Part shown: positions 5,858-20,967 of the stretch, piece by piece
How the letters are laid out: the number at the start of each line of letters is the position of its first letter
Position numbering within the stretch: the first letter of the stretch is position 1
IMG/VR virus record: IMGVR_UViG_2778261542_000002
Location: 1 to 57,194 of that record
DNA from: a virus
Taxonomy: Duplodnaviria; Heunggongvirae; Uroviricota; Caudoviricetes
DNA length: 57,194 bases
Reading direction: 5' to 3' (one strand)
Notes under the pieces: model-generated
Seen by the model: only the letters and a program-made list of their open reading frames with translations
The model's database searches: none
Told to the model about the DNA's origin: nothing
Position numbers and translations under genes: made by a program

Positions 5858-6156
5858 GAAAAAAATTTTTTTTCGGAAGAACTGTTCACACTGTTCACCT
5901 TTCTGTTTTTTCCTTTTATTTCAGTTGGATAGGTGGTGAATAATGGGTGAAGGGTGAACATTCGATTCTTCACCTCCGGCATTCTGCCGGTGTGACTCAT
6001 ACCGGCGATTAATCCTCCGCACTGAAAATCACACAGGAAGAAAAAAAGTTTTTTTTGATTTGATTGTTCACACTGTTCACCTTTCGTTTTTCTCTTTTGA
6101 TTTCAGTGTGATAACGGGTGAACATACGGTGAAGGGTGAACACTGGATTGTTCACC
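5858..6156. repeat. crr-like cis replication region: two ~115-bp direct repeats carrying TGTTCACC iterons
   Basis: Repeat units at about 5858-5974 and 6038-6156 are near-identical; each contains TGTTCACACTGTTCACC and GGGTGAAGGGTGAACA; sits just 3-prime of alpha, as crr does in P4. Confidence 0.55.
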
Positions 6157-6171
6157 TTCGGGGGATTCAGG

Positions 6172-6199
6172 GATGAAAAAAGACCGGCAGATGCCGGTC
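6172..6199 (-). terminator. putative rho-independent terminator of the alpha operon
   Basis: Perfect palindrome GACCGGCA/TGCCGGTC followed on the minus strand by a T-run, 17 nt after the alpha stop. Confidence 0.4.
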
Positions 6200-6215
6200 A
6201 GATGAGTCATGATGG

Positions 6216-8549
6216 TCAGGTTGTTGCAGGGTCGTCACATTTTGGCAGCCAGTCGCCGTAGCTTTCCTCTTTCAGCGTCAGGTTGGTCTGTATCCCCTGT
6301 TTGGTATGGCGCTTCTCGTAATTCAGTCCGTATTCCTTCAGCATCACCGGCAGCCCCAGCCCGAACATTTTCAGACTGAGTACATTCCGGTAGCCGTTTG
6401 CCTCCATGTAGGCCAGATAGGCGTGATAGAGGTATTTACGGTAATTACGCGGGATGATACTGGCGTTCCCCATATACATGCCGCTGGTCTGCGGCAGGGT
6501 TTCCAGATAGCCGATAAAATCAAACGTCGGGTCGGCATCCCGTTTGATGTTCAGTGCCTCGTCTGAGTTCTGCTGGGACTGAAGCAGTGACCGGGCGAGC
6601 ATCGGGTCGCTGAACTTCTGCATCAGGTGACGCACGATGACCGCCAGCTCGCGGGTGATTTTGTCCTTAAGCTGCGGGTCGCGCTCCTGCGGGGCTATCT
6701 GTTCCGGGAAGTGAATAATCACCCGCCGGCGTGACACGCCGCCGCTGCGGTCGGTGAAGCGCATCGGGTTATTGTTCACGGCCAGAATTACCGCCGGGAT
6801 GTGCGTGGAGTACGCATCCCGGTATTTCGGGTCAACGGACACCGCATCGCCGCCGGTGATGGCCTTGAGTCCGGCTCCGTCGCCGCTCCATTTTTCCTGG
6901 TCCGGCAGGCGTATCAGTGAGAAGCCAGTTAACGCGGCACGTTCACGCGGGGATTCCAGCGTCTCGATGGTGGCCGACGTGGCGTTATCCTCACCAGCCA
7001 GCAGGGTGGCTATTTCGGCCATGATACTTTTGCCGCTGCCGCCGGGACCGGTCACCTCCAGAAAGAGCTGCCAGTCGTAGCGGTTTGCCAGCACCATAAA
7101 CAGTGCGGCCAGAATCACGTCGCGTTTTTCCGCACGGCCACCGGCGGCACGGTCAAGCCAGCGCCAGAACGCGGGGGCGTGGGTCTCCAGTGTTTCACCG
7201 TCCACCGGCGGGGTGAAATCCACATCGCACAGGGTGCGCATCCAGTGTGACGGACTGTGCGGGTGGAACGTGCCGTTCTGCGTGTCGAGCACGCCGTTAC
7301 GAAAGCCAATCAGGCGGCGGGAGGGGGCTTCCTGCTGCGGAATAATCAGCTTCAGGGTGTCCACCACGGAGGCCACCTTCCCGGAGGAGAACGGCGCGCG
7401 CAGACGCTGAAACAGCCCGGCCACATCCCGGGCAAAGTCCTGTGGTGGCAGCACCTTCCAGACACCATTTTCATAGCGGGACAGAAGCTGGCCGTTGGCA
7501 TCAACCGCGAGCGCCTCGCCGTAATGCTCATAGATACGCATGGCCTTTTCGCTGGTACTCATGGCGGAAAACTCCGCTTCGCTCATGGTGTCGAACGGGC
7601 TTTCAGCCGGTGGCCGGATGGCATCGTAAATGGCCTTACGGGTGGCCTCCCCGCCGTACTGCGTGAAGGCATCATTCCAGTCACCGAAGACCGGCGGCAG
7701 GGCAACAACGCCCTCACACGCATCTGCGGCTGCGGCGGCTTTTGTCTGGCCGTCACCGCTGAGGTCACGGTCTGCGGCAAGGACAATCTGACAGGCCGGA
7801 TACTTCTGTCGGGCAAGGCTGGCCAGAGAAAGGAGGTTCACGGAAGAAAGCGCCACCATCACCGTTTCACCGGTCAGGTGATGCACGGTAAGTGCGGTCG
7901 CGTATCCCTCCGCTATCCACAGACGTTTTCCTGCCTGATTCTGTCCTTCAAGGGTGTGACAGGTGCCCCTGACCTGTCCGCCTTTCAGGGTGCGCTTACG
8001 GCCGTCAGCACTGATTAACTGAAGGTTAACCAGTTCGCCGCTGTCGTCATACAGTGGCACCACAAGGTCACCGGCGCGCCAGCTCACGCCACCGGCTCTG
8101 TGTGTGCCGGTCAGCATCCGGCATTCCCGGCCGGGAAAGCCCTTGCGGGTCAGGTAGGCGTTACCGGTTCCGGGACGGGTTTTTGCCATCAGGGTTTGTG
8201 CCAGTGCGGCGGCGTTCTTCCGGGCGGCTTCTGTTTCAGCACCGGCGGCGGCCGTCACTGCCGGGTCAGCCGGGGGCAGGCAGCCGGTCACGGCAGCCAC
8301 CTTTGCGGCCGCGTCGGACGGGGAAACACCAAACACCTTTTCAACCAGTTTCAGGCCGTCACCGGCACCACACTGATTGCAGTACCAGGTGCCACGCCCC
8401 TCCCTGTCATCAAAACGGAAGCGGTCACTCCCGCCACAGACCGGACAGGGCTGATGACGGTTCTTCAGCACCTGAATCCCCAGCGCCGGGAGAATACGCG
8501 GCCAGTGGCCGAGCGCATGGCTGACGGTGGCGGTTACGTTCATTTTCAT
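6216..8549 (-). CDS. alpha: P4 alpha-type primase-helicase (777 aa)
   Basis: N-terminal zinc-binding primase motif CPVCGGSDRFRFDD...WYCNQCG; Walker A GPGGSGKS; length identical to P4 alpha; flanked by iteron clusters. Confidence 0.9.
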   Translation of the reverse strand: MKMNVTATVSHALGHWPRILPALGIQVLKNRHQPCPVCGGSDRFRFDDREGRGTWYCNQCGAGDGLKLVEKVFGVSPSDAAAKVAAVTGCLPPADPAVTAAAGAETEAARKNAAALAQTLMAKTRPGTGNAYLTRKGFPGRECRMLTGTHRAGGVSWRAGDLVVPLYDDSGELVNLQLISADGRKRTLKGGQVRGTCHTLEGQNQAGKRLWIAEGYATALTVHHLTGETVMVALSSVNLLSLASLARQKYPACQIVLAADRDLSGDGQTKAAAAADACEGVVALPPVFGDWNDAFTQYGGEATRKAIYDAIRPPAESPFDTMSEAEFSAMSTSEKAMRIYEHYGEALAVDANGQLLSRYENGVWKVLPPQDFARDVAGLFQRLRAPFSSGKVASVVDTLKLIIPQQEAPSRRLIGFRNGVLDTQNGTFHPHSPSHWMRTLCDVDFTPPVDGETLETHAPAFWRWLDRAAGGRAEKRDVILAALFMVLANRYDWQLFLEVTGPGGSGKSIMAEIATLLAGEDNATSATIETLESPRERAALTGFSLIRLPDQEKWSGDGAGLKAITGGDAVSVDPKYRDAYSTHIPAVILAVNNNPMRFTDRSGGVSRRRVIIHFPEQIAPQERDPQLKDKITRELAVIVRHLMQKFSDPMLARSLLQSQQNSDEALNIKRDADPTFDFIGYLETLPQTSGMYMGNASIIPRNYRKYLYHAYLAYMEANGYRNVLSLKMFGLGLPVMLKEYGLNYEKRHTKQGIQTNLTLKEESYGDWLPKCDDPATT

Positions 8550-8563
8550 GGTGTTGTTCTCCT

Positions 8564-8884
8564 TCAGTGCAGTACCGGCGCTTTTATGTGACGGGCACAG
8601 AGTTCATCCATCACAACCAGCCCGAGAAAGGACAGCGACGGCGCGGCCTTCAGGGGGCCGGATTCCATTAAATCTTCCAGCAGGGCACAGGCTATCTGAC
8701 GCCCTTTTTCCTCACCGTGCTGGCGCAGATAAAAGCCTTCCAGCTCAGCGGCGATGGCCGCCTCCAGTGACTCAAGGGTGAGATGCGGGTAGCGGTGCTG
8801 ACGTTCGCACACGGTCAGCCAGGCACAGGCGACAGCGCGACGGTAAAGGGCAGCGCGTAAGACGGGCGGTAAGGGTGTTTTCAT
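8564..8884 (-). CDS. hypothetical protein (106 aa) in the alpha operon
   Basis: ORF in operon context between the 151-aa ORF and alpha; no motif recognised. Confidence 0.55.
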
Positions 8885-9019
8885 TTGTTTTCCTCCCTGT
8901 GACAGATGACTGCATTCCGTGCCGGTTGCATTAACTGATAAGGCATATCTGCGTCTCCTGAAGACGTGCGTATCCCTGCGCGAATACGCACATTTAATTT
9001 TTCGGGTATCGTTTTTTAA

Positions 9020-9475
9020 TTACAGATAATTGCGGTAACTGTTATCCGGGGTGATTTCCGGGTCAGGCTCCGTGCGGGGAATTTCCCGCCATTCCCGCGC
9101 CACCGGTGCCGCCCGGCTGGCCGGAACAGTGTCCTGCGGGTAAATATCCAGATATTTCTCCCGCCATTTCTGTAATTCCGGGTCTCCGGCCATTTCTTTC
9201 AGTACCGCATGCCGGTTTACGGGGCTGCGTTTAAACAGGTCAGGACGGTCACAGGTAAATTCCCGCAGAAAACGCCCCAGCGGGATGTCTGTGGTGCGCC
9301 CGTCATCGAGGATACGCACAAGGATACTGAATTTACGGCGGTACGGGTTCCAGACAATGTCCGGGCAGCGGTACGGCATTTCCCACGGAATACCGTCTTC
9401 CAGAATGCCGACCACGGCCACATCGGGAAAACCGGCAGAACGGTAAATCTCACCGGGCTGGGGAAAATCAAACAT
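9020..9475 (-). CDS. hypothetical protein (151 aa), size-matched to P4 orf151
   Basis: ORF in operon; start overlaps the stop of the upstream gene (ATGTTTGA). Confidence 0.6.
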   Translation of the reverse strand: MFDFPQPGEIYRSAGFPDVAVVGILEDGIPWEMPYRCPDIVWNPYRRKFSILVRILDDGRTTDIPLGRFLREFTCDRPDLFKRSPVNRHAVLKEMAGDPELQKWREKYLDIYPQDTVPASRAAPVAREWREIPRTEPDPEITPDNSYRNYL

Positions 9476-9755
9476 GCGTCCTGTCTCCCCGGTCTTTCTG
9501 CTGGGCGAGAAAATCGCGGCACAGGCCTTTGGCTTTCAGCTCATTCAGCACAAAATCAATATCTTCATTCAGGTAGCTGAAAATATGCGGAATGTAGAGC
9601 TGATGCAGGCCGGAGAGTTCACGGTGAATCAAATCACCCCCAACAAACTGGGATACGGCGCTGGCGCGGTTGAGCTTATGGTAAGCCTCAATGCTGAGGT
9701 GTTCACGGGCGTCATGACGTGCTGAGACGGTCTGAGGGGCTTTTTTATTACGCAC
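9468..9755 (-). CDS. epsilon-like small protein (95 aa), GTG start
   Basis: GGAGGTG Shine-Dalgarno 5 nt before GTG at 9755; positioned where P4 encodes the derepression protein epsilon; identity to epsilon not verified. Confidence 0.45.
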
Positions 9756-9945
9756 GGGACACCTCCACCACCGGCAGACGGGCAGCAAGGGAGAGCACAT
9801 AGTCACGGACAAGGGAACGGCGGGCGCTGCGTTCATCACCGGCGACGGTGCGAAGCATGCAGATACGGGGATGACGGTCTGCGCGACGGACAGCCGCAAA
9901 CACAAAGACAAATTCAGGGTGTGAGGGGGTAAGGGTTGTAGCCAT
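9748..9945 (-). CDS. small hypothetical protein (65 aa)
   Basis: ATG at 9945 preceded by GGAGG with 7-nt spacing; stop overlaps the epsilon-like GTG (GTGCGTAA); the longer 211-aa ORF upstream is not supported. Confidence 0.3.
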
Positions 9946-10334
9946 AAGGCAGCCTCCTTCGAGTAGCAAATAACTGCTATCGCCGGAGTTCTCACGCTCG
10001 ATGGCGATAGCCCAGACGGGGGTGAGAATACCGGCCTCGAAGAATACCGGCCAGCCCGGAGGCTGCCCCGCCTGAGCTACCATTGACTCAGTGGCATAAC
10101 ATGCGATTGCGAACAGGATCATACCTGCACGGCAAACCACACGCCACACCATAATCTGGCGCTCTGTGGCGTTGATTGCGACACAAAAAAAGACGCATGG
10201 CGCGTCATATGTCGCCTTCGAGTTACACGGGTTCTCACGCCCGGCTGCCGATTTTGCGGCAGCGGAAAAACTATATCCGCAAATGCCGGAAAAAGGCAAG
10301 CCAGAAAAAGGGACTTTTTGCAGAACAGGCATCA

Positions 10335-10601
10335 TCATGCGTCGTACCCCCGTTTGCGTCCGGCAATGCGGCCGGCCATCCATGCGGTGACTTCAGAGTG
10401 CAGCCAGGCCACATTTTTACCGCCAAGACTCACCTGCGGCGGAAATTCCCCCTTACGGATGAGTTCATAGATGGTCGAGCGTGACAGGCCGCACAGGTGC
10501 ATCACTTCCGGAAGACGTAAAAAACGCTCCTGTGTGATGTCCGGCAGCGGCATCAGTGGCGTCACAGGGGCGGGAGACGGGGAAGAAAAAACAGCTTGCA
10601 T
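10335..10601 (-). CDS. alpA: AlpA-family phage transcriptional regulator
   Basis: HTH segment [50 protein letters not shown] typical of AlpA; Shine-Dalgarno GAGGT before the ATG. Confidence 0.8.
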
Positions 10602-10750
10602 CGGGCTACCTCGTTAATGTCCATACAGCACCGGATAAGTCCGTCCGGCTTCGGGTAGCGCTTTATTTTGTGAATATTTTCAGCAGACGCAACAGGGGGG
10701 ATTTGTTCCGGCAGCCTTACAATGGTTGTGTGTTTTTTGTTCATTTCCAC

Positions 10751-10780
10751 TTAAAGTCATTTAAAGCCACTTAAAGCAAT
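10751..10780. repeat. three tandem 10-bp repeats TTAAAG(T/C)CA(T/C) upstream of the alpA-alpha operon
   Basis: TTAAAGTCAT TTAAAGCCAC TTAAAGCAAT in helical phase; candidate operator. Confidence 0.3.
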
Positions 10781-10880
10781 TTGTAATTTTTATAGTGAAA
10801 TACAAATCGTTTCTTCTTATTCATTCCCGGCGAATTAATAAAAACAAACAGTAGTAAACAGCACAAAAAGTCCATGAGCG

Positions 10881-10985
10881 GGTGAACAGTGGTGAACAGA
10901 CGGTGAACAGTCATTACTGCGATTGTTCATCCTTTAACTTACTGTATTACTTATCTTTTTTATTAAGGTGAACAGAGGTGAACAG
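10881..10985. repeat. ori-like iteron cluster (five GGTGAACAG = TGTTCACC reverse complement)
   Basis: Three tandem GGTGAACAG at 10881-10910, two more at 10967-10985, plus inverted GATTGTTCATCC; lies ~4.8 kb from the crr cluster with alpha between, as in P4. Confidence 0.55.
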
Positions 10986-11063
10986 TAAAATATAAAAAAA
11001 CAAACAGTAAGCCGGTTTTTCCTGCGACCTTTTCCTGGCTTGCCGGTGTGAGGATGAGTCTCC

Positions 11064-11081
11064 TGTGTCAGGGCTGGCACA
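11064..11081 (+). promoter_or_regulatory. TGT-N12-ACA dyad, candidate Ogr/Delta activator site of the sid late promoter
   Basis: TGTgtcagggctggcACA centred ~80 bp upstream of the sid ATG; P2/P4 late promoters use this dyad. Confidence 0.4.
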
Positions 11082-11153
11082 TCTGCAATGCGTCGTGTTG
11101 CTGTCCGGTGTACGTCACAATTTTCTTAACCTGAAGTGACGAGGAGCCGGAAA

Positions 11154-11888
11154 ATGTCTGACCACACTATCCCTGAATATCTGAAACCCGCACTGGCACA
11201 ACTGGAAAAGGCCAGAGCCGCCCATCTTGAGAACGCCCGCCTGATGGATGAGACCGTCACGGCCATTGAACGGGCAGAGCAGGAAAAAAATGCGCTGGCG
11301 CAGGCCGACGGAAACGACGCTGACGACTGGCGCACGGCCTTTCGTGCAGCCGGTGGTGTCCTGAGCGACGAGCTGAAACAGCGCCACATTGAGCGCGTGG
11401 CACGCCGGGAGCTGGTACAGGAATATGACAATCTGGCCGTGGTGCTGAATTTTGAACGCGAACGCCTGAAAGGGGCGTGTGACAGCACGGCCACCGCCTA
11501 CCGGAAGGCACATCATCACCTGCTGAGTCTGTATGCAGAGCATGAGCTGGAACACGCCCTGAATGAAACCTGTGAGGCGCTTGTCCGGGCAATGCATCTG
11601 AGCATCCTGGTACAGGAAAATCCGCTCGCCAACACCACCGGCCATCAGGGCTACGTCGCACCGGAAAAGGCTGTCATGCAGCAGGTGAAATCATCGCTGG
11701 AACAGAAAATAAAACAGATGCAAATCAGCCTCACCGGCGAGCCGGTTCTCCGGCTGACCGGACTGTCAGCGGCAACACTCCCGCACATGGATTATGAGGT
11801 GGCAGGCACACCGGCACAGCGCAAGGTGTGGCAGGACAAAATAGACCAGCAGGGAGCAAAGCTTAAGGCCAGAGGACTGCTGTCATGA
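11154..11888 (+). CDS. sid: Sid-like capsid size-determination protein (244 aa)
   Basis: GAGGAG Shine-Dalgarno; 244 aa as in P4 Sid; position sid-delta-psu; helical, Ala/Glu/Gln-rich. Confidence 0.75.
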   Translation: MSDHTIPEYLKPALAQLEKARAAHLENARLMDETVTAIERAEQEKNALAQADGNDADDWRTAFRAAGGVLSDELKQRHIERVARRELVQEYDNLAVVLNFERERLKGACDSTATAYRKAHHHLLSLYAEHELEHALNETCEALVRAMHLSILVQENPLANTTGHQGYVAPEKAVMQQVKSSLEQKIKQMQISLTGEPVLRLTGLSAATLPHMDYEVAGTPAQRKVWQDKIDQQGAKLKARGLLS

Positions 11889-12385
11889 TTTACTGCCCGT
11901 CGTGTGGACATGTTGCTCACACCCGTCGCGCACATTTCATGGACGATGGCACCAAGATAATGATTGCACAGTGCCGGAATATTTATTGCTCTGCGACATT
12001 TGAAGCGAGTGAAAGCTTTTTCTCTGACTGTAAAGATTCAGGAATGGAATACATTTCAGGCAAACAGAGATACCGCGATTCACTGACGTCAGCCTCCGGC
12101 AGCATGAAGCGCCCGAAAAGAATGCTTGTTACCGGATATTGTTGTCGGAGATGTAAAGGCCTTGCGCTGTCAAGAACATCGCGGCGTCTGTCTCAGGAAG
12201 TCACCGAGCGTTTTTATGTGTGCACGGATCCGGGCTGTGGTCTGGTGTTTAAAACGCTTCAGACCATCAACCGCTTCATTGTCCGCCCGGTCACGCCGGA
12301 CGAGCTTGCAGAAAGCCTGCATGAAAAACAGGAACTGCCGCCAGTACGGTTAAAAACACAATCATATTCGCTGCGTCTGGAATGA
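11885..12385 (+). CDS. delta: Delta-type late-gene transactivator (166 aa, two Ogr-like zinc-finger repeats)
   Basis: Two Cys clusters (CPSCGH...C..IYC and CCRRCKG...CTDPGCG), the P4 Delta duplicated-Ogr architecture; 166 aa. Confidence 0.8.
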   Translation: MIYCPSCGHVAHTRRAHFMDDGTKIMIAQCRNIYCSATFEASESFFSDCKDSGMEYISGKQRYRDSLTSASGSMKRPKRMLVTGYCCRRCKGLALSRTSRRLSQEVTERFYVCTDPGCGLVFKTLQTINRFIVRPVTPDELAESLHEKQELPPVRLKTQSYSLRLE

Positions 12386-12458
12386 GGGCTGCCGGTTAAC
12401 ACCGGCCGTCGCCGCACACCGTATTTTTATTCTTCAGCATGATGAGAAAGAGATAACG

Positions 12459-13031
12459 ATGGAAAGCACAGCCTTACAGCAGGCCTTTGACACCTGTCAG
12501 AATAACAAAGCAGCATGGCTGCAACGCAAAAATGAGCTGGCTGCGGCCGAACAGGAATATCTGCGGATTCAGTCAGGAGAAGGCAGAAACGTCAGTCGCC
12601 TGGACGAATTACGCAATATTATCGAAGTCAGAAAATGGCAGGTGAATCAGGCCGCCGGTCGTTATATTCGTTCGCATGAAGCCGTTCAGCACATCAGCAT
12701 CCGCGACCGGCTGAATGATTTTATGCAGCAGCACGGCACAGCACTGGCGGCGGCACTGGCACCGGAGCTGATGGGCTACAGTGAGCTGACGGCCATTGCC
12801 CGAAACTGTGCCATACAGCGTGCCACAGATGCCCTGCGTGAAGCCCTTCTGTCCTGGCTTGCGAAGGGGGAAAAAATTAATTATTCCGCACAGGATAGTG
12901 ACATTTTAACGACCATCGGATTCAGGCCTGACGCGGCTTCGGTGGATGACAGCCGTGAAAAATTCACCCCTGCGCAGAACATGATTTTTTCGCGTAAAAG
13001 TGCGCAACTGGCATCACGTCAGTCTGTGTAA
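12459..13031 (+). CDS. psu: Psu-like polarity suppression / capsid decoration protein (190 aa)
   Basis: 190 aa as in P4 Psu; last gene before cos; sequence begins MESTALQQAF, as I recall for P4 Psu. Confidence 0.75.
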   Translation: MESTALQQAFDTCQNNKAAWLQRKNELAAAEQEYLRIQSGEGRNVSRLDELRNIIEVRKWQVNQAAGRYIRSHEAVQHISIRDRLNDFMQQHGTALAAALAPELMGYSELTAIARNCAIQRATDALREALLSWLAKGEKINYSAQDSDILTTIGFRPDAASVDDSREKFTPAQNMIFSRKSAQLASRQSV

Positions 13032-13066
13032 AATTCCCCGAAAATCCTCCCGTTTTTACTGAAAAA

Positions 13067-13106
13067 AGCCATGCATCGATAAGGTGCATGGCTTTGCATG
13101 CGTTTT
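13067..13106 (+). terminator. putative terminator after psu
   Basis: 9-bp perfect stem AGCCATGCA/TGCATGGCT followed by a T-containing tract. Confidence 0.3.
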
Positions 13107-13195
13107 CCTGCCTCATTTTCTGCAGACCGCACCATTCCCGGCGCGGTCTGAGCGTGTCAGTGCAACTGCATTAAAACCGCCCCGCAAAGCGGGCG

Positions 13196-13214
13196 GGCGA
13201 GGCGGGGAAAGCAC
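13196..13214. other. cos site (P2/P4 19-nt cohesive end)
   Basis: Exact GGCGAGGCGGGGAAAGCAC, the P2/P4 cohesive-end sequence as I recall it, immediately after psu. Confidence 0.6.
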
Positions 13215-13334
13215 TGCGCGCTGTGGGTGCATAACCAAAAGTTTTGATGTCGTAAATATGCGCAAGATACTGGTTTCTGAAACTCGAGGTTGATATCTTA
13301 CTTGTCAAAAGGATATGAGATAAGGAGTGTATAA

Positions 13335-16076
13335 ATGGCCAGGCCGTTACCACTGAATAAAGATTTGATAGTTTGTGTACCTAGTAATTATTCCAATACC
13401 TCGAGAGGGAAGTTTTTCGAGAATTTTTGCGCTGATATACTCCGCCGGCAATCGTATAGAATTGATGGTATGGAAGTCAGAAAATCTGGCATGGAAATTG
13501 ATATTCAGGCTACTCATACACCATCAAATGAAAAGCTGTATGTAGAATGTAAATTCATGCAGCAAAAAGTTGATTCATCTGTGGTTGATTTGGCATTTTC
13601 TCAAGCATTTAGGTTGAGAGTTAAAAAAATTGCACTTTTTTCAATTTCTGATTTGGGTAAAGATGCTCAGTCAACGCTTGAGGATTATAGACTTGATGAG
13701 CGTATAGATTATTCTTTTTTTGATAAAAAAGAGATTCTTATATCTATACTTGCAACAGGTAAGGTTGAGGATATTCCAACAGATGACATTCCGGCAAAAT
13801 ATACTAGTGCAACACTTTTAGTTCATCCTGAAATAGAAATGACTTGGCTTTTGCAAGAAGTTGAAAATGGTAGCCCTATAAGAGTGGTGCCGTTCGCTAT
13901 AAATAAAAATAGTAAAATTCCAAGTGTCAGTCGCATAAGTGATATTATAAAGGAGCAAGGGCTTTTTGAAGGGTTGGAAGTAACTGATTTTTATATATTA
14001 TCTGAACCGGAACAAACTGTTTCGTCTTCAAAATTATCTGAAAATTACGAAAGGGAAATTGTCAGTGAAATAATTCTTGCTGACGATTTTATGGATTATA
14101 AGCCATGTCAGCCGAAAGACTTTGTTGGTCGCGAATATATACAGAAAGAAGTTTGGGATTATCTTGAGAATGTTAGAGGAAATAGCTCTCAAAGTAGAGT
14201 CCTATCACTTATAGGCGGTTCAGGAAATGGAAAGTCATCTTTAATAGCAAGGCTATCCTCAAGATTTAAAAATCAAAAATGGAAGAATAAATTCTTCCTT
14301 ACACCAGTCGATGTCCGTTCTGCTAGAGGCGGACGTTTTGTGGCAGAAGCTGTCGTTAAAGCTTTCAGCAGTGCGATCAAAGAAGGTTTTATCGAATATG
14401 AAAAACCATTCCTGATTGAGAGTGTTACGGATATCATAGGATCTGAGAGTGTTCAGGAATGTTTAAAATACCTTTCCGAACATGATAAGGTATTGACTAT
14501 TTTCTTTGATCAGTTCGAAGAAGTCTTTATGAAAGAGGAACTATTCGGGCTATTTAAAGAATTTGAACGATTCGCACTCGATGTCTCGGCACTACAAAGC
14601 AATTTAGTTGTAGGGTTCTCATGGAGAACTGGTATTACTTTAGGGGATGAAAATCCAGCGTACTCAATGTGGAATCGGCTAAAAGATTATAGGGTTGAAA
14701 AGAAACTTGAGCCTTTTGATCTAAAAGATTCATCTAAATTAATTAATAGTTTCGAGCTAAATACAGGGTTTAAATTAAATAAACCTTTACGCACGCGTCT
14801 TATTCAGCAAGCTCAAGGTTATCCATGGTTATTGAAAAAGCTTTGTATTCATGTATTCAAAAAACTAAAAGGAGGTATCTCACAGGATCAAATGTTGGTT
14901 AGTCAACTACAGATCTCAAATTTATTTCATGAGGATTTAGATAGGCCTGAAAAACAAAATTCATGTTTAAAATTTGTGGCAAAGAACTCTCCGATTAGTC
15001 AATATGAAGTTACTAAAGAGTTTGGGAGTGATACTGTTTTAGAGCTAATTTCAGATAGGATGGTAATTAAAACAGGTGAAAAATTATCAGTGTATTGGGA
15101 CGTTTTTCGAGATTACTTGAAAGGAAATGACCTTCCAGTTATACCATGGTCATATATGCCATCAACATCTCCGAAAATGGTTTTGTTAATTCTTGATGTT
15201 GTAAACTCGTTCAAAACCATTAGCTTGGATGAACTGCAAACTAAACTAAAATATAGTCGGGGAACATTAATAAATGTTTTAATGGATTTGCAGTATTTTG
15301 TTCTCATAGACAGAGATTTAAATGGGAATATAGTTTGTAAACAGACTATCACAAATGTCCCTGAGTTTCTTCGTGAGCATTTTAAGAGTCATAGTGTTTT
15401 GTTAGAATTGGCAGAGAATATTGTTGATGCCGATTTAAGAAGAGTTCCTATCGATAAGTATGAATCTATAATAGCCCATACTTATAAGAATAAAGACGGT
15501 GGTTATCCTAAGTCTTATAGTTCAAAATTATTGGCTTGGTTACAATTTACGGGGCTGATAGCGGTTATCGGGAAATCTGTGGTTATATATGATGGCGAGT
15601 TGTTTTCCCCAGCATTTGGGGCGATTGATCTAGATAAAAGAGGGGCACGCAATAGAAGAGGATCACTTTTCTTAGCTGCTACTTCGCCAGAAAAAACACT
15701 CGAAGTTGCCGAGTATCTGTGCGCCAATAAAAAAATGAGCCATTCATTCATTCAGGCGAATAAACATAGGAATGCAGTGCAGGATTTAATTTCTTTAGGT
15801 TTTTGTTCTCGACAAGATGATGGTGTGGTGATAAATAATAAAATAGAAGTTATATTAGAAAGCATCAGCCTTGAAAGGGCTTTAGCTAGGTTAGTCACTG
15901 AATCTCCAGCTATCAAAATATTAAATGCTTATGTAAATAAATTTGGCGATGATGATAAGAAAATGATGGGGGCAGCACTAGCAAAAGAACTTGAGAGAAC
16001 ATGGACACCTGCATCTACTACTAGATATATTTATGCACTAATGAGATATCGAAATTTCGCATTGGAAACTTTATAA
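13335..16076 (+). CDS. 913-aa fusion protein: N-terminal Mrr-type PD-(D/E)xK nuclease signature + STAND-type P-loop NTPase + ~350-aa C-terminal region; candidate antiviral gene
   Basis: AAGGAG Shine-Dalgarno; AT-rich in a GC-rich element; N-terminus FENFCADILRRQSYRIDGMEVRKSGMEIDIQA...LYVECKF (Mrr catalytic pattern); DFVGRE lead-in, Walker A LIGGSGNGKSS, Walker B LTIFFDQFEE, GYPWLL (GxP-like). Confidence 0.85.
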   Translation: MARPLPLNKDLIVCVPSNYSNTSRGKFFENFCADILRRQSYRIDGMEVRKSGMEIDIQATHTPSNEKLYVECKFMQQKVDSSVVDLAFSQAFRLRVKKIALFSISDLGKDAQSTLEDYRLDERIDYSFFDKKEILISILATGKVEDIPTDDIPAKYTSATLLVHPEIEMTWLLQEVENGSPIRVVPFAINKNSKIPSVSRISDIIKEQGLFEGLEVTDFYILSEPEQTVSSSKLSENYEREIVSEIILADDFMDYKPCQPKDFVGREYIQKEVWDYLENVRGNSSQSRVLSLIGGSGNGKSSLIARLSSRFKNQKWKNKFFLTPVDVRSARGGRFVAEAVVKAFSSAIKEGFIEYEKPFLIESVTDIIGSESVQECLKYLSEHDKVLTIFFDQFEEVFMKEELFGLFKEFERFALDVSALQSNLVVGFSWRTGITLGDENPAYSMWNRLKDYRVEKKLEPFDLKDSSKLINSFELNTGFKLNKPLRTRLIQQAQGYPWLLKKLCIHVFKKLKGGISQDQMLVSQLQISNLFHEDLDRPEKQNSCLKFVAKNSPISQYEVTKEFGSDTVLELISDRMVIKTGEKLSVYWDVFRDYLKGNDLPVIPWSYMPSTSPKMVLLILDVVNSFKTISLDELQTKLKYSRGTLINVLMDLQYFVLIDRDLNGNIVCKQTITNVPEFLREHFKSHSVLLELAENIVDADLRRVPIDKYESIIAHTYKNKDGGYPKSYSSKLLAWLQFTGLIAVIGKSVVIYDGELFSPAFGAIDLDKRGARNRRGSLFLAATSPEKTLEVAEYLCANKKMSHSFIQANKHRNAVQDLISLGFCSRQDDGVVINNKIEVILESISLERALARLVTESPAIKILNAYVNKFGDDDKKMMGAALAKELERTWTPASTTRYIYALMRYRNFALETL

Positions 16077-16083
16077 TTATTAA

Positions 16084-16107
16084 ATCATAGGGCGAAAGCC
16101 CTATGAT
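16084..16107. terminator. bidirectional hairpin between the convergent 913-aa gene and int
   Basis: Perfect 10-bp stem ATCATAGGGC/GCCCTATGAT with GAAA loop, T-rich flank. Confidence 0.4.
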
Positions 16108-17288
16108 TTTACTTTTATACCCCACCATGACATCAATTCTCTGCGTTGTTCTAAATAAATAGAACGATTATACGCCCGCCGTACTTCATTTTTATCTATA
16201 TGCGCTAAAGCTGATTCTATAATATCGGAATTAAAACCAGACTCGTTCAACGCTGTGCTAGCTATAGAACGAAGCCCATGAGCAACGAGTTTACCGCCAT
16301 AACCAATCCTTTTAAGAGCAGCATTAGCAGTTTGGCTATTCATAGGTTGTTTAGGATCATTCCTGCTGGGAAAAACATGTTCTCGGTGAGCGCTAATTGG
16401 CTTCATTACATCCAGAATCTCTAATGCCTGTGGTGATAAAGGAACAATGTGTTCCCGCTTAGCTTTCATCCGTTCGGCTGGAATAGTCCAGAGCTTCGTA
16501 TCGAGATCGATCTCTGCCCAACGGGCACCAGAGGCCTCAGAAGGGCGCACGAGCGTCAGGAGTTGCCATTCAATGAGACAGCGAGTCGGAACAGACAGAT
16601 TTGACATGACTAAAGAACGCATCAGCTTCGGCAATTCTTCTGGCCGCAGCGTCGGCATGTTTTGTTTTTTGGGCTTCTCAAAGGCCATTCCAATACCTGA
16701 TGCTGGATTGGCATCAATCAGACCAGTGTTTACGGCATAAATCATTATCTCGTTAATACGCTGCACTAGTCGACGTACAGTCTCAAGCGCTCCACGAGCT
16801 TTGATTGGTTCCAATGCTTCAACTAATATTCGGGCTTTAATTTGCTGAACGGGGATCTCACCGATGGCAGGGAATACATCTTTCTCCAATGAGCGCCAAA
16901 TGTCTTTTGCGTAATCAGGGGTAACGCTTTTACTTTTGAGCTGGAACCAGTTAGCGGCGACCATTGAGAAAATACTGTCCAGAGCGATTTGCTGCTGTTC
17001 CTCTGCAACTTCGGCCTGAATTTGTGGGTCAATTCCGTTGGCTAACAAGGCAAGGTAATCCGCTCTTAACCCTCGGGCGTCAGCAAGTGAAAGGGCGGGG
17101 AAAGCACCAAGCCCCATCATTGTCCGCTGTTTTGTCGCTGGACGTTGATAACGGAAACGCCAGAGCTTTTTCCCGCTGGTTTTCACTATCAGGAAAAGGC
17201 CATCGCCATCATGCAGAGTTAGATCCTTCTCTAACGCTTTAGCGCGAAGAACTTCGGTGTTGGTAAGGGGGCGTGTTGTCCGTGCCAC
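16101..17288 (-). CDS. int: P4-type tyrosine integrase (395 aa)
   Basis: Catalytic-domain boxes (LTLVRPSEASGARWAEIDL; HGLRSIASTAL...RAYNRSIY); adjacent to att core; GTG start. Confidence 0.9.
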   Translation of the reverse strand: MARTTRPLTNTEVLRAKALEKDLTLHDGDGLFLIVKTSGKKLWRFRYQRPATKQRTMMGLGAFPALSLADARGLRADYLALLANGIDPQIQAEVAEEQQQIALDSIFSMVAANWFQLKSKSVTPDYAKDIWRSLEKDVFPAIGEIPVQQIKARILVEALEPIKARGALETVRRLVQRINEIMIYAVNTGLIDANPASGIGMAFEKPKKQNMPTLRPEELPKLMRSLVMSNLSVPTRCLIEWQLLTLVRPSEASGARWAEIDLDTKLWTIPAERMKAKREHIVPLSPQALEILDVMKPISAHREHVFPSRNDPKQPMNSQTANAALKRIGYGGKLVAHGLRSIASTALNESGFNSDIIESALAHIDKNEVRRAYNRSIYLEQRRELMSWWGIKVKS

Positions 17289-17402: not shown

Positions 17403-17437
17403 ACAAAAAAGCCCGCAGGGCTTGTGCCATGCGGGCT
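17403..17437 (-). terminator. rho-independent terminator between att core and int
   Basis: AGCCCGCA/TGCGGGCT stem followed on the minus strand by TTTTTT; positioned as a tmRNA-gene terminator would be. Confidence 0.45.
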
Positions 17438-17472
17438 TTCTGTACTTCACCGGACGTATCCGGATCATGATT

Positions 17473-17503
17473 TGGTGGAGCTGGCGGGAGTTGAACCCGC
17501 GTC
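17473..17503 (-). other. att core identical to the 3-prime 31 nt of ssrA (tmRNA); the tmRNA gene itself is absent
   Basis: Minus strand reads GACGCGGGTTCAACTCCCGCCAGCTCCACCA, the tmRNA acceptor/T-arm end as I recall it; upstream sequence does not continue as tmRNA. Confidence 0.7.
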
Positions 17504-17628
17504 AAAATTTATATAATCTTTTGTAAAATATACGTTTTTTCTATTGTTTTTGATCCGCGTATACTTCGCGTACACTTTGCCATTTGAACTTAAACATGCT
17601 GCCGTCGCTACATCATGACATGTTATTT

Positions 17629-18315
17629 TTACTTCTCATTTTCAAAGTCATCACGAATGTTAATTAGATCTGTAATCAAAGCGCCAACTTTAGTTGAAGG
17701 ATTTATCGAACCGTCTTTTTTGGCGGCATCTTCGACTCTTTTAGCATTGATTAATGCCGTATCGAGCCGATCTTGCAATTTATTAAATACACCTGATGCC
17801 TTTTTCTCATAATCTGGCATGTATTTTTTTAACTCAGCTAGCATTTGTGCGCCTTCACTTTTGCCTTTCTGAGGTGAAAATGATTTTCGGGTGTATCCAA
17901 AATGTAGTATCAGCCAGTACTCGAAACATGGTATGGAAGTTATAGCAACAAAAATCCCTTTTGGATTTAAGGAATTAATCCTGCTAAGAGCTTCATCATA
18001 GTTAGGGTGAGCGTCTCTATCAAAGACACAATAAACCTTATCATAAGGGTCGCTCCTTTTTTTTTCCGTATTATATTTTTCTTTTGCCCAAGATACCACA
18101 TTCATAGGGCTTGAGCCGCACTCTCCAGAAATCTCAACTATGCTTGCCGTGCTTATACGGCAATGTTTTATAAAATCTGTAAAATATGCGGGCTCAGTCT
18201 TCTCTCCCTCACAGACGATAAGAATTTTCTTCATTTGAGCTCGTGCTTTACTAACTCGTTTGAATTCATTATTACGCCGAGCCTTTCTTTTTTTGAACAG
18301 ATCTTCGCTTCCCAT
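17629..18315 (-). CDS. RloB-like protein (AbiLii-like partner of the ATPase)
   Basis: N-terminal ILIVCEGEKTEPAYF and CVFDRDAHPNYDE acidic motifs, read as RloB/Toprim-like; likely start is the ATG overlapping the upstream stop (TAATG), preceded by GGGAGAG. Confidence 0.65.
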   Translation of the reverse strand: MGSEDLFKKRKARRNNEFKRVSKARAQMKKILIVCEGEKTEPAYFTDFIKHCRISTASIVEISGECGSSPMNVVSWAKEKYNTEKKRSDPYDKVYCVFDRDAHPNYDEALSRINSLNPKGIFVAITSIPCFEYWLILHFGYTRKSFSPQKGKSEGAQMLAELKKYMPDYEKKASGVFNKLQDRLDTALINAKRVEDAAKKDGSINPSTKVGALITDLINIRDDFENEK

Positions 18316-19580
18316 TAATATCTCTCCCATTTCCCAATGAGTGGTAAAGCCCCATATCTACCGTCAAGATAAGAAGCTTCTAAATTCTCCCTTCCTTTTC
18401 TTGGACTAAAATCCGTAAGTGGGAAAAGATTTGTTTGCTTTGAATTGTCTTTTTCTACAAACCAAATCTGATCTCGTCTGAAAACATCTTGATTTAAAAT
18501 AGACGTCTCATGAGTTGTAAAGATTAACTGGGCACCATTCTTATTGATATTTTTATCGTGAAATAAACCTACAATAAACTCAACTAATTTGGGGTGTAAG
18601 TTATCATTTAATTCATCAATAAACAGGATGTTTCCTGTCTCGAGTGAATGTGATAAGGGACCCGCGAAACTAAAGATTTTTCTAGTTCCATGCGATTCAT
18701 CTTTTAAATCGAATGGAATTGGCTCTCCATCCTCATTATTATGAAGTGTTTTAATGACATATTCTTCCTTGCCTTGCATATTCTTAATCACTAGTTCCTT
18801 GATGGCTGCAGGCATATCATCAGGAAGAGCATTGGGATTGAATTTTTCTTTTGTTACATGAATGTCATCAATACCTACATCGGCAGCTTTTAAAAAATTG
18901 AGAATCTCATCTTTCTTATCATTTAAGCATTGCTTTGCACTGTAATCACTATCCCAACCTGTTAATTCAGTAAATTTAACTTTGTAATAAAACCAATCGT
19001 ATACAGGTTTTAGTTGTACACTGTTTAATTGTACCGCTGTAGAAAGAAAGAGCGCATTAGGCCTGGTTGATTTCAACCATGTTTGTTTTTCTCCTGTCAA
19101 CGATGGCCCCAACTCCCATTCATGGGTTTGTTTTTCTTCATCCCATAGACGTAAAAACCATTTTTGTGGTCTGCCTTTGGGGAATGCAAATAACCATTCG
19201 TCGTGAATAAAATCTTCTGTTGCAGAAAAACCATACTGGTATCTGATGCCTTCGGAAATAAAGTTAATTTCAAATTCAGATGGTTGATTAATCTTCTTTG
19301 AGTCTAGTCTAAAAGGCGTGATATCAAGTTTATCACCACTTTTATAACCTGTAGCAGACCGGACAATAAGTTCAGCCATAGTTGTAATAGCGTTAATAAT
19401 GTTTGATTTTCCGGCAGCATTAGGGCCATAAATCACAGCACTTTTAAGCAATTCAAGAGATTTAGGTTCATCAATACTGAACAGATTATTAGGCAAATCG
19501 TTAAGTTTTGATGCAACTAAACTCAGTGTTTGTTTCTCTGAAATAGATTTATAGTTTTGTACTGTAAACTCAATCAACAT
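18315..19580 (-). CDS. ABC/AAA-type ATPase (AbiLi-like)
   Basis: Walker A GPNAAGKSN, Walker B ILFIDELNDNLHP, H-loop-like QLIFTTHETS; AT-rich; translationally coupled to the RloB-like gene. Confidence 0.8.
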   Translation of the reverse strand: MLIEFTVQNYKSISEKQTLSLVASKLNDLPNNLFSIDEPKSLELLKSAVIYGPNAAGKSNIINAITTMAELIVRSATGYKSGDKLDITPFRLDSKKINQPSEFEINFISEGIRYQYGFSATEDFIHDEWLFAFPKGRPQKWFLRLWDEEKQTHEWELGPSLTGEKQTWLKSTRPNALFLSTAVQLNSVQLKPVYDWFYYKVKFTELTGWDSDYSAKQCLNDKKDEILNFLKAADVGIDDIHVTKEKFNPNALPDDMPAAIKELVIKNMQGKEEYVIKTLHNNEDGEPIPFDLKDESHGTRKIFSFAGPLSHSLETGNILFIDELNDNLHPKLVEFIVGLFHDKNINKNGAQLIFTTHETSILNQDVFRRDQIWFVEKDNSKQTNLFPLTDFSPRKGRENLEASYLDGRYGALPLIGKWERY

Positions 19581-19770: not shown

Positions 19771-20967
19771 TTACTTCTCAATTTTCATGTTCTCCGGATT
19801 TTTTGATACTTGGTCCTTACAAGCTGTCTTGCCATCATAGTCTACGAGATACGAACCATAATGCCTGAAAAGCATTTCCGGCCCTTTATGCCCCATTTGA
19901 GCTGCAAGCCAAAACAGATTTGCTCCTCGGCTGATATGGCTGGTGGCGAATGTATGCCTAGTTTGATATGGATTTCTGTATCGAATACCTGCTTTCCGTA
20001 ATGTTGGCACCCATGCTTTTTTCCTGATTGCATCAGCACTTGCCCAAGGCTTATTGGTCTTTGGGTCTTCAAAGACAGTAGCATCCTTCATGAATGTAAA
20101 TGGCTTCTGATTTATCAGCGCCAACATAGCCTCTTCTGTCAGTTCAACTTTACGAGTACCGGCTTTTGTCTTTGTTCCTTTGATAACACCGACAACACTT
20201 GCACTCTGGACATGGGCAGTTTTTCCAACAAAGTCGATATCACGCCATCTAAGGGCACATAATTCAGAACTACGCAGGCCTGTATGTATAGCGAACCGGA
20301 ACAGATTCTCCCATTGTTTGTTTCCGGCTGCTGCTAGTAATGCATCAACTTCTGTTGGTGATAGCGGATCAACCACGTAGCAGCTTTCTGCTTCTGACTT
20401 ATCACTTTGGTAGCGCGAAGCAGTTACCAACGATACGGGGTTAATTTGAAGTACCCCATCGGTTACGGCTTCATCAAGTGCTGACCGCAGGAAAGATAAC
20501 TGGTTGCGAATTGTTTTTAAGGTCGTTTTCTGGCTTTGAATCCACGCTTTCAGGATTGCTGGTGTTAATTCACTTGCAGGGCAAATGTGGAGTGAGGCTA
20601 ACGCACTGCGGCATTTTTTATAACCACCAATCGTTGAGGGTGAGAGTTTTCTCGTTTCGCAGATTTCAAGGTATTCGTCCAGGTACATTTTTACCGTTTT
20701 GCCTGCAGCAGCATTACCAAAAATTTTCAAACGAGCAGAACGGGGAAAATATTCCGCATAAATGAATGTTCCCCTTTCGATCTTATTATGAATTTCGCCG
20801 AGTGTGCGCTCGGCGTATTTAATGTTCTTTGGTGTTACTTCCAGATTGGAAAGAGGCTCACGACATTTAACTCCTTTGTAGGTGAAAGTTATATTGATCG
20901 TTTCGCCCTGGCGGTGTTTCCTGATTGTTACGCCGCGCGGTAGTTTGAGCAGTTTTGTCTGGCCCAT
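19771..20967 (-). CDS. int: phage tyrosine integrase (398 aa)
   Basis: Catalytic boxes TGLRSSELCALRWRDID and RHTFATS...LAAQMGHKGPEMLFRHYGSY. Confidence 0.9.
   Translation of the reverse strand: MGQTKLLKLPRGVTIRKHRQGETINITFTYKGVKCREPLSNLEVTPKNIKYAERTLGEIHNKIERGTFIYAEYFPRSARLKIFGNAAAGKTVKMYLDEYLEICETRKLSPSTIGGYKKCRSALASLHICPASELTPAILKAWIQSQKTTLKTIRNQLSFLRSALDEAVTDGVLQINPVSLVTASRYQSDKSEAESCYVVDPLSPTEVDALLAAAGNKQWENLFRFAIHTGLRSSELCALRWRDIDFVGKTAHVQSASVVGVIKGTKTKAGTRKVELTEEAMLALINQKPFTFMKDATVFEDPKTNKPWASADAIRKKAWVPTLRKAGIRYRNPYQTRHTFATSHISRGANLFWLAAQMGHKGPEMLFRHYGSYLVDYDGKTACKDQVSKNPENMKIEK

What the first reader, a model, noticed from the sequence alone, without database searches (positions are those of the whole stretch)
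13335..16076. Single 913-aa nuclease-STAND NTPase gene occupying the P4 cargo hotspot: candidate uncharacterised antiviral protein
Seen directly: an AT-rich 2.9-kb insert sits exactly where P4 encodes gop-beta-cII (between cos/psu and int) in an otherwise GC-rich P4-like backbone. Its only ORF has an N-terminal Mrr-type PD-(D/E)xK signature (GMEIDIQA ... LYVECKF), a central P-loop NTPase with DFVGRE lead-in, Walker A LIGGSGNGKSS, Walker B LTIFFDQFEE and a GYPWLL (GxP-like) motif, then ~350 aa with no recognisable motif. The psu-int interval of P4-like satellites is a known hotspot for defence cargo. Nuclease-STAND-sensor is the AVAST/Avs logic, but this protein is much shorter than Avs1-4 and I cannot assign it to a named family. 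It has its own promoter region and Shine-Dalgarno (13215-13334) and a convergent hairpin with int.
Basis: partly seen in the sequence, partly recalled or inferred. Interest (0 to 1): 0.85.

Follow-up and report, generated by a model that had tools for sequence, protein, structure and literature searches.

The report
Nuclease-STAND immune protein in P4 satellite
A single 913-residue gene carried in the cargo slot of a P4-like phage satellite encodes an NLR-like protein (DNA-cutting domain, ATP switch, winged-helix sensor) that very probably defends the cell against phages; this protein was already listed, untested, in a 2022 survey, so it is a good candidate but not a discovery.

Summary
ORF 13335-16076 (+) encodes 913 aa. 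It is AT-rich (GC 0.35 against 0.56 in the backbone) and fills the gap between the P4 cos site (13196-13214) and the integrase. Pfam matches Mrr_cat and nSTAND1 above their thresholds. The PD-ExK triad, Walker A and Walker B are invariant in 58 homologues that are 28-81% identical.

The "motif-less" C-terminus is a confidently predicted stack of three winged-helix domains plus a helical bundle (pLDDT 92). This module is found only in this ~900-aa family and resembles no solved sensor as a whole.

Homologues recur as single genes in a Pectobacterium P4-like satellite, the P2 hotspot of a Providencia prophage, an Acinetobacter prophage and two defence islands.

The closest solved structure is EcAvs4. 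No PADLOC model matches (AVAST I-V and PD-lambda-4 gave no hit).

The most likely mechanism is Avs-like. The winged-helix sensor binds a phage cue, ATP-dependent oligomerisation follows, and the Mrr nuclease is switched on. This is inferred, not shown.

Novelty is limited. Rousset et al. [quoted passage not shown] They did not test it. It is a new, unnamed member of a known kind. Interest is moderate.

The parts
13196..13214 (+). P4/P2 cos cohesive-end sequence GGCGAGGCGGGGAAAGCAC. It marks the left edge of the variable cargo slot.
   Evidence: Sequence read. Homology to the P4 reference stops at window 13195, which is the end of the linear P4 record. That this 19-mer is the P2/P4 cos end rests on my own knowledge.
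13215..13334 (+). Upstream leader of the cargo gene, with Shine-Dalgarno AAGGAG at 13322-13327. The promoter is unverified.
   Evidence: sequence. One search found no sigma-70 consensus match in this interval.
13335..16076 (+). CDS of the 913-aa Mrr-nSTAND1-winged-helix protein (RefSeq WP_000113630.1).
13335..13769 (+). Residues 1-145: Mrr-type PD-(D/E)xK nuclease. E29, D56, E71, K73 and K109 are invariant.
13770..14096 (+). Residues 146-254: small acidic three-strand-plus-helix domain (146-226), then a low-confidence linker (227-254; pLDDT below 50 at residues 227-237).
   Evidence: AF2 model. Net charge -8 and -5.
14097..15134 (+). Residues 255-600: STAND module. It comprises the NBD (Walker A G297-x-G299-K300-S-S, Walker B D392...E395-E396), a helical domain (G495-x-P497) and a winged-helix domain.
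15135..16073 (+). Residues 601-913: putative sensor. Three tandem winged-helix domains (about 613-670, 675-755 and 785-835) plus a C-terminal helical bundle (846-912).
16082..16109 (.). 12-bp stem, GAAA-loop hairpin between the convergent stop codons of the cargo gene and int. It looks like a bidirectional terminator.
16101..17288 (-). Satellite tyrosine integrase (395 aa), the right edge of the cargo slot.

Best explanation
The gene encodes a one-protein, Avs-like (NLR-like) antiviral receptor carried as cargo by a P4-like satellite.

Proposed steps:
1. At rest the protein is a self-inhibited monomer.
2. During infection, the C-terminal module of three winged-helix domains and a helical bundle binds a phage-derived cue. 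A phage protein is the most likely cue.
3. Binding releases the NBD-HD-WHD switch, which binds ATP and drives oligomerisation.
4. Oligomerisation brings the N-terminal Mrr-type nuclease domains together. They then cut DNA without sequence preference, which stops phage replication at the cost of the infected cell.

What is shown here: the domain architecture, conservation of the catalytic and nucleotide-binding residues, the fold, and the recurrent single-gene location in mobile-element and defence hotspots.

What is inferred by analogy with Avs proteins: the trigger, oligomerisation, nuclease activation and the abortive outcome.
For: Domains: Mrr_cat and nSTAND1 score above Pfam thresholds and are found in all 38 homologues scanned.

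Conserved residues: D56, E71, K73, Walker A K300 and Walker B D392/E395/E396 are invariant over 58 sequences that are 28-81% identical.

Sensor behaviour: the C-terminal module evolves faster than the core. Identity to the query is 25-34% against 56% in the NBD. Non-synonymous divergence is pN 0.149 against 0.085. This is what one expects of a sensor.

Selection: synonymous sites are saturated between the E. coli and Serratia copies (pS ~0.8) while pN is 0.107, so the gene is under purifying selection.

Genomic context, always as a single gene:
- E. coli P4 slot
- Pectobacterium P4-like slot
- Providencia P2-type prophage, between the primase and the portal
- Acinetobacter prophage
- edge of an Aeromonas integrative element
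- defence islands in Photobacterium and a Desulfobacterales genome

Occupancy: the slot varies. 2256 E. coli genomes match the query, most only over part of it, but only 53 carry the gene.

Literature: Rousset et al. 2022 showed the psu-int slot to be a defence hotspot and validated a TIR-STAND protein from it. Mrr-STAND Avs8A is an ATP- and Mg-dependent nuclease activated by its phage trigger.
Against: - No phenotype exists for this protein. It is absent from Rousset et al.'s table of tested systems.
- No PADLOC family matches it beyond ~60-residue P-loop or nuclease stretches.
- Its sensor is not the TPR-like repeat typical of Avs proteins. Winged helices more often bind nucleic acid.
- Three homologue contexts have no defence or mobile-element neighbours on record.
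- Similarity to EcAvs4 is fold-level only (12% identity, TM about 0.2).
Confidence: 0.6

Rival explanations
1. It is an NTP-dependent, modification-dependent (type IV-like) restriction enzyme. The winged-helix array reads phage DNA directly, for example modified bases or an unusual DNA structure. The STAND NTPase licenses the Mrr nuclease to cut that DNA, with no protein trigger and no host killing.
For: - RefSeq names it 'restriction endonuclease'.
- The best matches to the C-terminal domains are DNA-binding winged helices: MarR, ArsR, Z-alpha and Csa3.
- Winged-helix sensor domains have been described in modification-dependent endonucleases (introduction of PMC12191111).
Against: - The winged-helix domains are close to neutral in charge, -1 to +1 in the query.
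- The conserved positions of the recognition helices are T644, N647, D651 and Y728, W735, not basic residues.
- The NTPase has a STAND/Orc-type switch fold rather than a translocase fold.
- This family shows fast sensor divergence with a fixed architecture.
Confidence: 0.15
2. It mainly serves the satellite rather than the host. It could be an addiction or competition module that kills cells losing the element, or that attacks rival satellites, helper phages or plasmids.
For: - It is carried on mobile elements in at least five genera.
- Rousset et al. discuss inter-viral competition and found that a TIR-STAND cargo also reduced P2 and P4 titres.
Against: - It is a single gene with no antitoxin partner in any context examined.
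- It also occurs in chromosomal islets and defence islands without a satellite.
- Rousset et al. report that most P4 cargo is permissive to P2-like helpers.
Confidence: 0.1
3. It is not an immune protein. It could be a STAND-type regulator that uses its winged helices to bind DNA (MalT- or AfsR-like), with a degenerate nuclease domain, or a housekeeping ATPase.
For: - Five homologues match Pfam NA-iREase1, an 'inactive' restriction-endonuclease domain.
Against: - The full PD-ExK catalytic set is invariant in 58 homologues.
- The gene is AT-rich relative to its flanks in every host, so it looks horizontally acquired.
- It is patchy, present in 53 of 5426 E. coli genomes.
- No NCBIfam housekeeping family matches it.
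Confidence: 0.03

Closest known systems
EcAvs4 (AVAST type 4; PDB 8dgf)
   Same: Both are single polypeptides with an N-terminal Mrr-like PD-(D/E)xK nuclease, a central STAND NTPase and a C-terminal sensor. EcAvs4 is the top Foldseek match to the full model (E 1.3e-11).
   Different: Identity is 12%, and no sequence-profile match was found. EcAvs4 is 1534 aa, and from my own knowledge it has a large helical-repeat sensor that binds phage portal. This protein is 913 aa with a ~310-aa sensor of three winged helices. Its trigger is unknown.
Avs8A / PD-lambda-4 (Mrr nuclease + STAND; senses major capsid protein)
   Same: Same effector class and same logic. Avs8A is reported to be an ATP- and Mg-dependent dsDNA nuclease activated by its phage trigger (PMC12236752).
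   Different: No PD-lambda-4 model was among the PADLOC matches for this protein or the 38 homologues scanned; that PADLOC v2 carries PD-lambda-4 models rests on my own knowledge. Avs8 is a two-gene operon (Avs8A plus Avs8B). This protein is always a single gene.
TIR-NLR (Rst_TIR-NLR), validated cargo of the P4 hotspot
   Same: It occupies the same psu-int slot of P4-like satellites and has the same effector-STAND-sensor layout. Rousset et al. explicitly group Mrr_cat-STAND proteins with it.
   Different: It has a TIR effector and a TPR sensor (HHpred rows). Here the effector is an Mrr nuclease and the sensor is made of winged helices. The TIR-NLR has a demonstrated phenotype; this protein has none.
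Archaeal Walker-type ATPases PAB2304 / SSO1545 (Pfam ATPase_2 + DUF234) and Cdc6/Orc1
   Different: They lack a nuclease effector and the extra winged-helix array. They are not known defence proteins.
nSTAND1 clade (Kaur, Burroughs, Iyer, Aravind 2021)
   Same: The Pfam nSTAND1 match is above threshold. The clade was defined in predicted counter-invader conflict systems.
   Different: The match covers only profile positions 8-132 of 379. The nSTAND1 proteins described so far carry other effectors (EADs, TIR, peptidases) and lectin/FGE-type sensors.

Membership tests
STAND NTPase superfamily (nSTAND1 clade) | P-loop NTPase with Walker A GxxxxGK[ST] and Walker B hhhhD followed by acidic residues | tested here: met
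   G294/S296/G297/G299/K300/S301/S302 and F391/D392/E395/E396 are invariant or nearly so in 58 homologues.
STAND NTPase superfamily (nSTAND1 clade) | Tripartite NBD, helical domain and winged-helix domain module | tested here: met
STAND NTPase superfamily (nSTAND1 clade) | Pfam PF20703 match above the gathering score | tested here: met
   32.0 bits against a threshold of 27.1, but only profile positions 8-132 of 379 are covered. All 38 homologues match.
Avs / AVAST (types 1-5, Avs8) | Effector, STAND and sensor in one polypeptide | tested here: met
Avs / AVAST (types 1-5, Avs8) | Sequence-profile match to a named Avs family model | tested here: not met
   PADLOC v2 gives no AVAST, PD-lambda-4 or bNACHT hit for this protein or 38 homologues. 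The only hits are ~60-residue stretches, P-loop or nuclease.
Avs / AVAST (types 1-5, Avs8) | Large helical-repeat (TPR-like) C-terminal sensor | tested here: not met
   The C-terminus is three winged helices plus a helical bundle, about 310 aa. Lee et al. report that most Avs sensors are TPR-like, and they analysed only C-terminal regions of at least 400 aa.
Avs / AVAST (types 1-5, Avs8) | Anti-phage activity and activation by a phage-encoded trigger | not testable with these tools
   This needs plaque assays and co-expression screens. No published test was found.
Avs7-24 and the 198 defence-associated STAND clades of Lee et al. 2026 | Placement in a numbered clade or sensor cluster | not testable with these tools
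   The supplementary tables are not held.
bNACHT / bacterial NLR-related proteins | NACHT-clade NTPase (Pfam PF05729) | tested here: not met
   This protein has no NACHT hit at E <= 1. Only weak hits appear in 14 of 38 homologues, best E 3.4e-5.
Mrr-type type IV restriction endonuclease | Mrr_cat catalytic domain with an intact PD-ExK motif | tested here: met
   Mrr_cat scores 32.1 bits against a threshold of 21. D56, E71 and K73 are invariant.
Mrr-type type IV restriction endonuclease | DNA-reading domain that binds modified DNA | tested here: inconclusive
   Winged helices are present, but they are near neutral and lack conserved basic recognition-helix residues. Binding was not tested.
P4 psu-int hotspot defence cargo (Rousset et al. 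2022) | Located between cos/psu and int of a P4-like satellite, with variable occupancy among strains | tested here: met
   Searches give the position. One search shows 2256 genomes matching the query (mostly only partly) against 53 with the gene. It is listed as system 13 with 97 loci in Table S1B.

The most novel reading that the evidence does not exclude
The tandem winged-helix module is a nucleic-acid sensor. On this reading the family would be a compact bacterial STAND receptor that detects phage DNA or RNA directly (a structure, a modification or a replication intermediate) rather than a phage protein. It would then oligomerise to fire its nuclease. That would be a sensing mode not reported for the characterised Avs/NLR-like families I found (Avs8 and Avs10-21 all sense phage proteins).
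Probability: 0.12. Interest if true: 0.75.

Novelty: new member of a known kind. Interest (0 to 1): 0.38.

Why it matters
If it is active, this would be one of the smallest nuclease-type NLR-like receptors, and its sensor is built from winged helices rather than helical repeats. Finding its trigger would add one entry to the growing list of phage components that bacterial STAND receptors recognise. It would also test whether a ~310-residue winged-helix array can act as a pattern-recognition module.

It is a practical target. It is a single gene, present in 53 complete E. coli genomes, and sits in a slot where untested cargo has a high success rate: 6 of 8 unknown P4 cargoes protected in the 2026 preprint.

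It does not change the general picture. Nuclease-STAND defence proteins and the P4 hotspot are both established, and this protein was already flagged as such.

Tried and rejected
- PHROGs and NCBIfam gave only P-loop noise.
- tblastn against 50,697 phage records found nothing.
- Sequence and profile searches of the PDB gave no significant hit, only weak winged-helix and AF1548 hints.
- The consensus promoter scan found nothing in the claimed promoter interval.
- The AFDB50 fold library was not available, so I could not ask whether the whole C-terminal module exists in other predicted proteins. The exhaustive phmmer search of 1.84 billion representatives served as a substitute. It found 91 clusters, all with the same architecture or fragments of it.
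- The ~410-520-aa hits that looked like a second architecture are N-terminally truncated gene calls that start inside the helical domain or the NTPase core. The same applies to the 652-aa Acinetobacter 'ATPase', which starts at the internal Met253.
- dN/dS by domain could not be computed because synonymous sites are saturated. Only pN could be compared.
- Mapping onto the Avs7-24 nomenclature failed because the supplements of Lee et al. 2026 are not held.
- A search for the accession in full texts found nothing. The protein appears only in supplementary tables.
- Gao et al. 2022 (Science) is not held, so statements about the Avs3/Avs4 mechanism rest on my own knowledge and on secondary descriptions.
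Full report

Yes. The window has one long ORF at 13335..16076 on the + strand (913 aa, ATG start), and nothing comparable on either strand of that interval.

GC content falls to 0.33-0.38 between 13250 and 16250, against 0.50-0.58 in the neighbouring DNA. The gene is 0.354 and the P4 backbone 0.556.

The P4 reference genome aligns at 97.7% identity to window 6000-13195 and stops at the end of its linear record, which is the cos end. The 19-mer GGCGAGGCGGGGAAAGCAC follows at 13196-13214. That this is the P2/P4 cohesive end is from my own knowledge.

RefSeq annotation of an identical locus (NZ_CP081192) gives the gene order alpha, DUF5375, epsilon-like, icd-like, vis-like, sid, delta, psu, this gene, integrase. 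The gene therefore fills the slot between cos/psu and int.

An AAGGAG lies 7 nt before the ATG. A 12-bp hairpin at 16082-16109 separates the convergent stop codons. The claimed promoter is the one part I could not support: the consensus scan finds none in 13215-13334.

**2. What is the protein?**

*Profiles and conservation.* Pfam gives Mrr_cat (residues 24-117, 32.1 bits, threshold 21) and nSTAND1 (255-402, 32.0 bits, threshold 27.1). AAA_16 falls just below its threshold.

A database search found 536 relatives. The full-length ones are all about 890-946 aa and cover the whole query. They come from Serratia, Pantoea, Pectobacterium, Vibrio, Aeromonas, Acinetobacter, Photobacterium, Providencia, Desulfobacterales and many metagenomes.

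In an alignment of 58 of them (28-81% identical) the following are invariant:
- nuclease residues E29, D56, E71, C72, K73 and K109;
- Walker A G297, G299, K300, S301 and S302;
- Walker B D392, E395 and E396;
- the G495-x-P497 motif.

All 38 members scanned carry both Pfam domains.

*Selection.* Between the E. coli and Serratia copies, synonymous sites are saturated (pS about 0.8) while pN is 0.107. The gene is therefore under purifying selection.

*Overall model.* An AlphaFold2 model built on the family alignment is confident (pLDDT 84.9, pTM 0.66). It shows:

| Residues | Domain |
|---|---|
| 1-145 | nuclease |
| 146-226 | small acidic three-strand-plus-helix domain |
| 227-254 | linker, poorly predicted at 227-237 |
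| 255-460 | NBD |
| 461-536 | helical domain |
| 537-600 | winged-helix domain |
| 601-913 | C-terminal region |

*The C-terminal region.* Modelled alone, residues 598-913 give pLDDT 92.3 and pTM 0.86. The region is three winged-helix units plus a helical bundle.

*Best matches to the full model.*
- Foldseek ranks EcAvs4 (8dgf) first, at E 1.3e-11, with an alignment spanning both nuclease and NTPase.

**3. Is the C-terminal module a sensor?**

Three lines of evidence bear on this.

- *It is the fastest-evolving part.* Mean identity to the query is 25-34% in the C-terminal domains, against 56% in the NBD and helical domain. pN is 0.149 against 0.085.
- *It is exclusive to this family.* An exhaustive phmmer search of 1.84 billion representative proteins with residues 598-913 found only 91 clusters. 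Every full-length hit carries the module at about residues 590-900 of a ~900-aa protein. The shorter hits I read are truncated gene calls that start inside the helical domain or the NTPase core.
- *It does not look like a classical DNA binder.* The winged helices are near neutral in charge. Their conserved recognition-helix residues are T644, N647, D651 and Y728, W735, not basic residues. This argues weakly against DNA binding but does not exclude it.

**4. Genomic context**

The gene is always alone.

| Host | Identity | Context |
|---|---|---|
| E. coli | - | psu-int slot of a P4-like satellite |
| Pectobacterium | 76% | same slot of a P4-like satellite (alpha primase, AlpA, Ogr/Delta, cargo, int), next to smpB |
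| Providencia | 29% | P2-type prophage, between the replication primase and the portal gene |
| Acinetobacter | 48% | prophage moron between DarA/DdrB and tail genes |
| Aeromonas | 48% | edge of an integrative element |
| Photobacterium | 48% | island with RnlA, HEPN-Toprim, T5orf172 and IS66 |
| Desulfobacterales | 34% | island with Abi_alpha, a kinase, GT4-conflict and a methylase-SMC-SLFN-helicase cluster |
| Serratia, Pantoea | 81%, 76% | islets beside LysR and beta-lactamase genes, no mobile-element genes left; the Pantoea copy is ~4 kb from smpB |
| Vibrio vulnificus, one metagenome | 48%, 40% | no informative neighbours |

From my own knowledge, the Providencia position corresponds to the P2 old/tin defence hotspot.

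In every host the gene is more AT-rich than its flanks, for example 0.358 against 0.580 in Serratia. In E. coli, 2256 of 5426 complete genomes match the query, most only over part of it, but only 53 carry the gene. That is the signature of a variable cargo slot.

**5. Mechanism**

The best-supported reading is an Avs-like, single-protein receptor:
1. The winged-helix module binds a phage cue.
2. The STAND switch binds ATP and oligomerises.
3. The clustered Mrr domains cut DNA.

The architecture, the conserved catalytic and ATP-binding residues and the context are shown. The trigger, the assembly and the abortive outcome are inferred from Avs4 (my own knowledge of Gao et al. 2022, which is not held), from Avs8A, which is an ATP- and Mg-dependent nuclease activated by capsid protein, and from Avs7.

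The main rival is an NTP-dependent, modification-dependent restriction enzyme whose winged helices read DNA. I give it 0.15. A satellite-selfish role and a non-immune role are less likely.

**6. Comparison with what is known**

- *PADLOC v2.* It gives no hit from the AVAST, PD-lambda-4 or bNACHT families for this protein or for 38 relatives. The only hits are ~60-residue stretches, P-loop or nuclease. That those models are in the library is my own knowledge.
- *Avs membership.* By sequence the protein is not a member of Avs1-5 or Avs8, although it works like them.
- *Lee et al. 2026.* They describe 589 STAND clades, 198 of them defence-associated, and name Avs7-24. They clustered only C-terminal regions of at least 400 aa and tested 27 further sensor clusters. 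A ~310-aa sensor after the winged-helix domain probably fell outside that analysis. I could not check, because the supplements are not held.

**7. Novelty**

The candidate is not new. Rousset et al. 2022 list WP_000113630 in Table S1A. [quoted passage not shown] The main text states that hotspot STAND proteins can carry Mrr_cat in place of TIR.

Its sequence is absent from their table of tested systems and from the supplements of the 2026 P4/P2 preprint. No text in the library cites the accession.

What this analysis adds:
- the identity of the C-terminal module;
- its restriction to one compact family;
- the recurrence of the family in P4, P2 and other hotspots across genera;
- the absence of any match to the PADLOC defence models.

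I file it as a new, unnamed member of a known kind, with moderate interest (0.38). The most novel reading still open is direct nucleic-acid sensing by the winged-helix array (probability about 0.12).

Noticed in passing
window 17629-19580 (- strand): A two-gene AbiL-type system lies just past the P4-like integrase and before a second integrase (19771-20967) that starts a lambdoid prophage. It consists of a 421-aa AAA ATPase (PADLOC AbiLi, E 2e-99; also AriA-like, 2e-37) and a 233-aa RloB-family protein (AbiLii, 3e-29). The pair is AT-rich (GC 0.33-0.38). Defence cargo therefore flanks the integrase on both sides.
   Followed up: partly
window 17405-17806 (- strand): There is a sub-threshold tmRNA match (31 bits, threshold 47) and an IsrM-like fragment, although ARAGORN finds no tmRNA or tRNA in the window. 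This is probably a remnant of an ssrA-type attachment site. The Pectobacterium satellite carrying the homologue sits next to smpB, and the Pantoea islet lies ~4 kb from smpB.
   Followed up: partly
window 13084-13293 (+): RefSeq annotates a 69-aa 'hypothetical protein' (WP_071590453) here. The ORF runs across the cos site and the end of P4 homology, so it is probably not a real gene.
   Followed up: no
window 16101-17288 (-): The satellite backbone is 97.7% identical to P4 up to cos, but the integrase has no megablast match to the P4 reference. The cargo and integrase end of the element appears to be exchanged as a unit, or at least independently of the backbone.
   Followed up: no
L002 10001-12742 and L012 8001-10742 (Serratia, Pantoea): The 76-81% identical homologues sit beside LysR-type and beta-lactamase genes with no satellite genes around them; the Pantoea copy is ~4 kb from smpB. 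The cargo gene may have outlived a decayed satellite.
   Followed up: no
L007 6696-14199 (Providencia rettgeri): A 29%-identical family member lies between the replication primase and the portal gene of a P2-type prophage. The same protein family is therefore used as cargo by both the helper-type phage and the satellite in different genera.
   Followed up: partly
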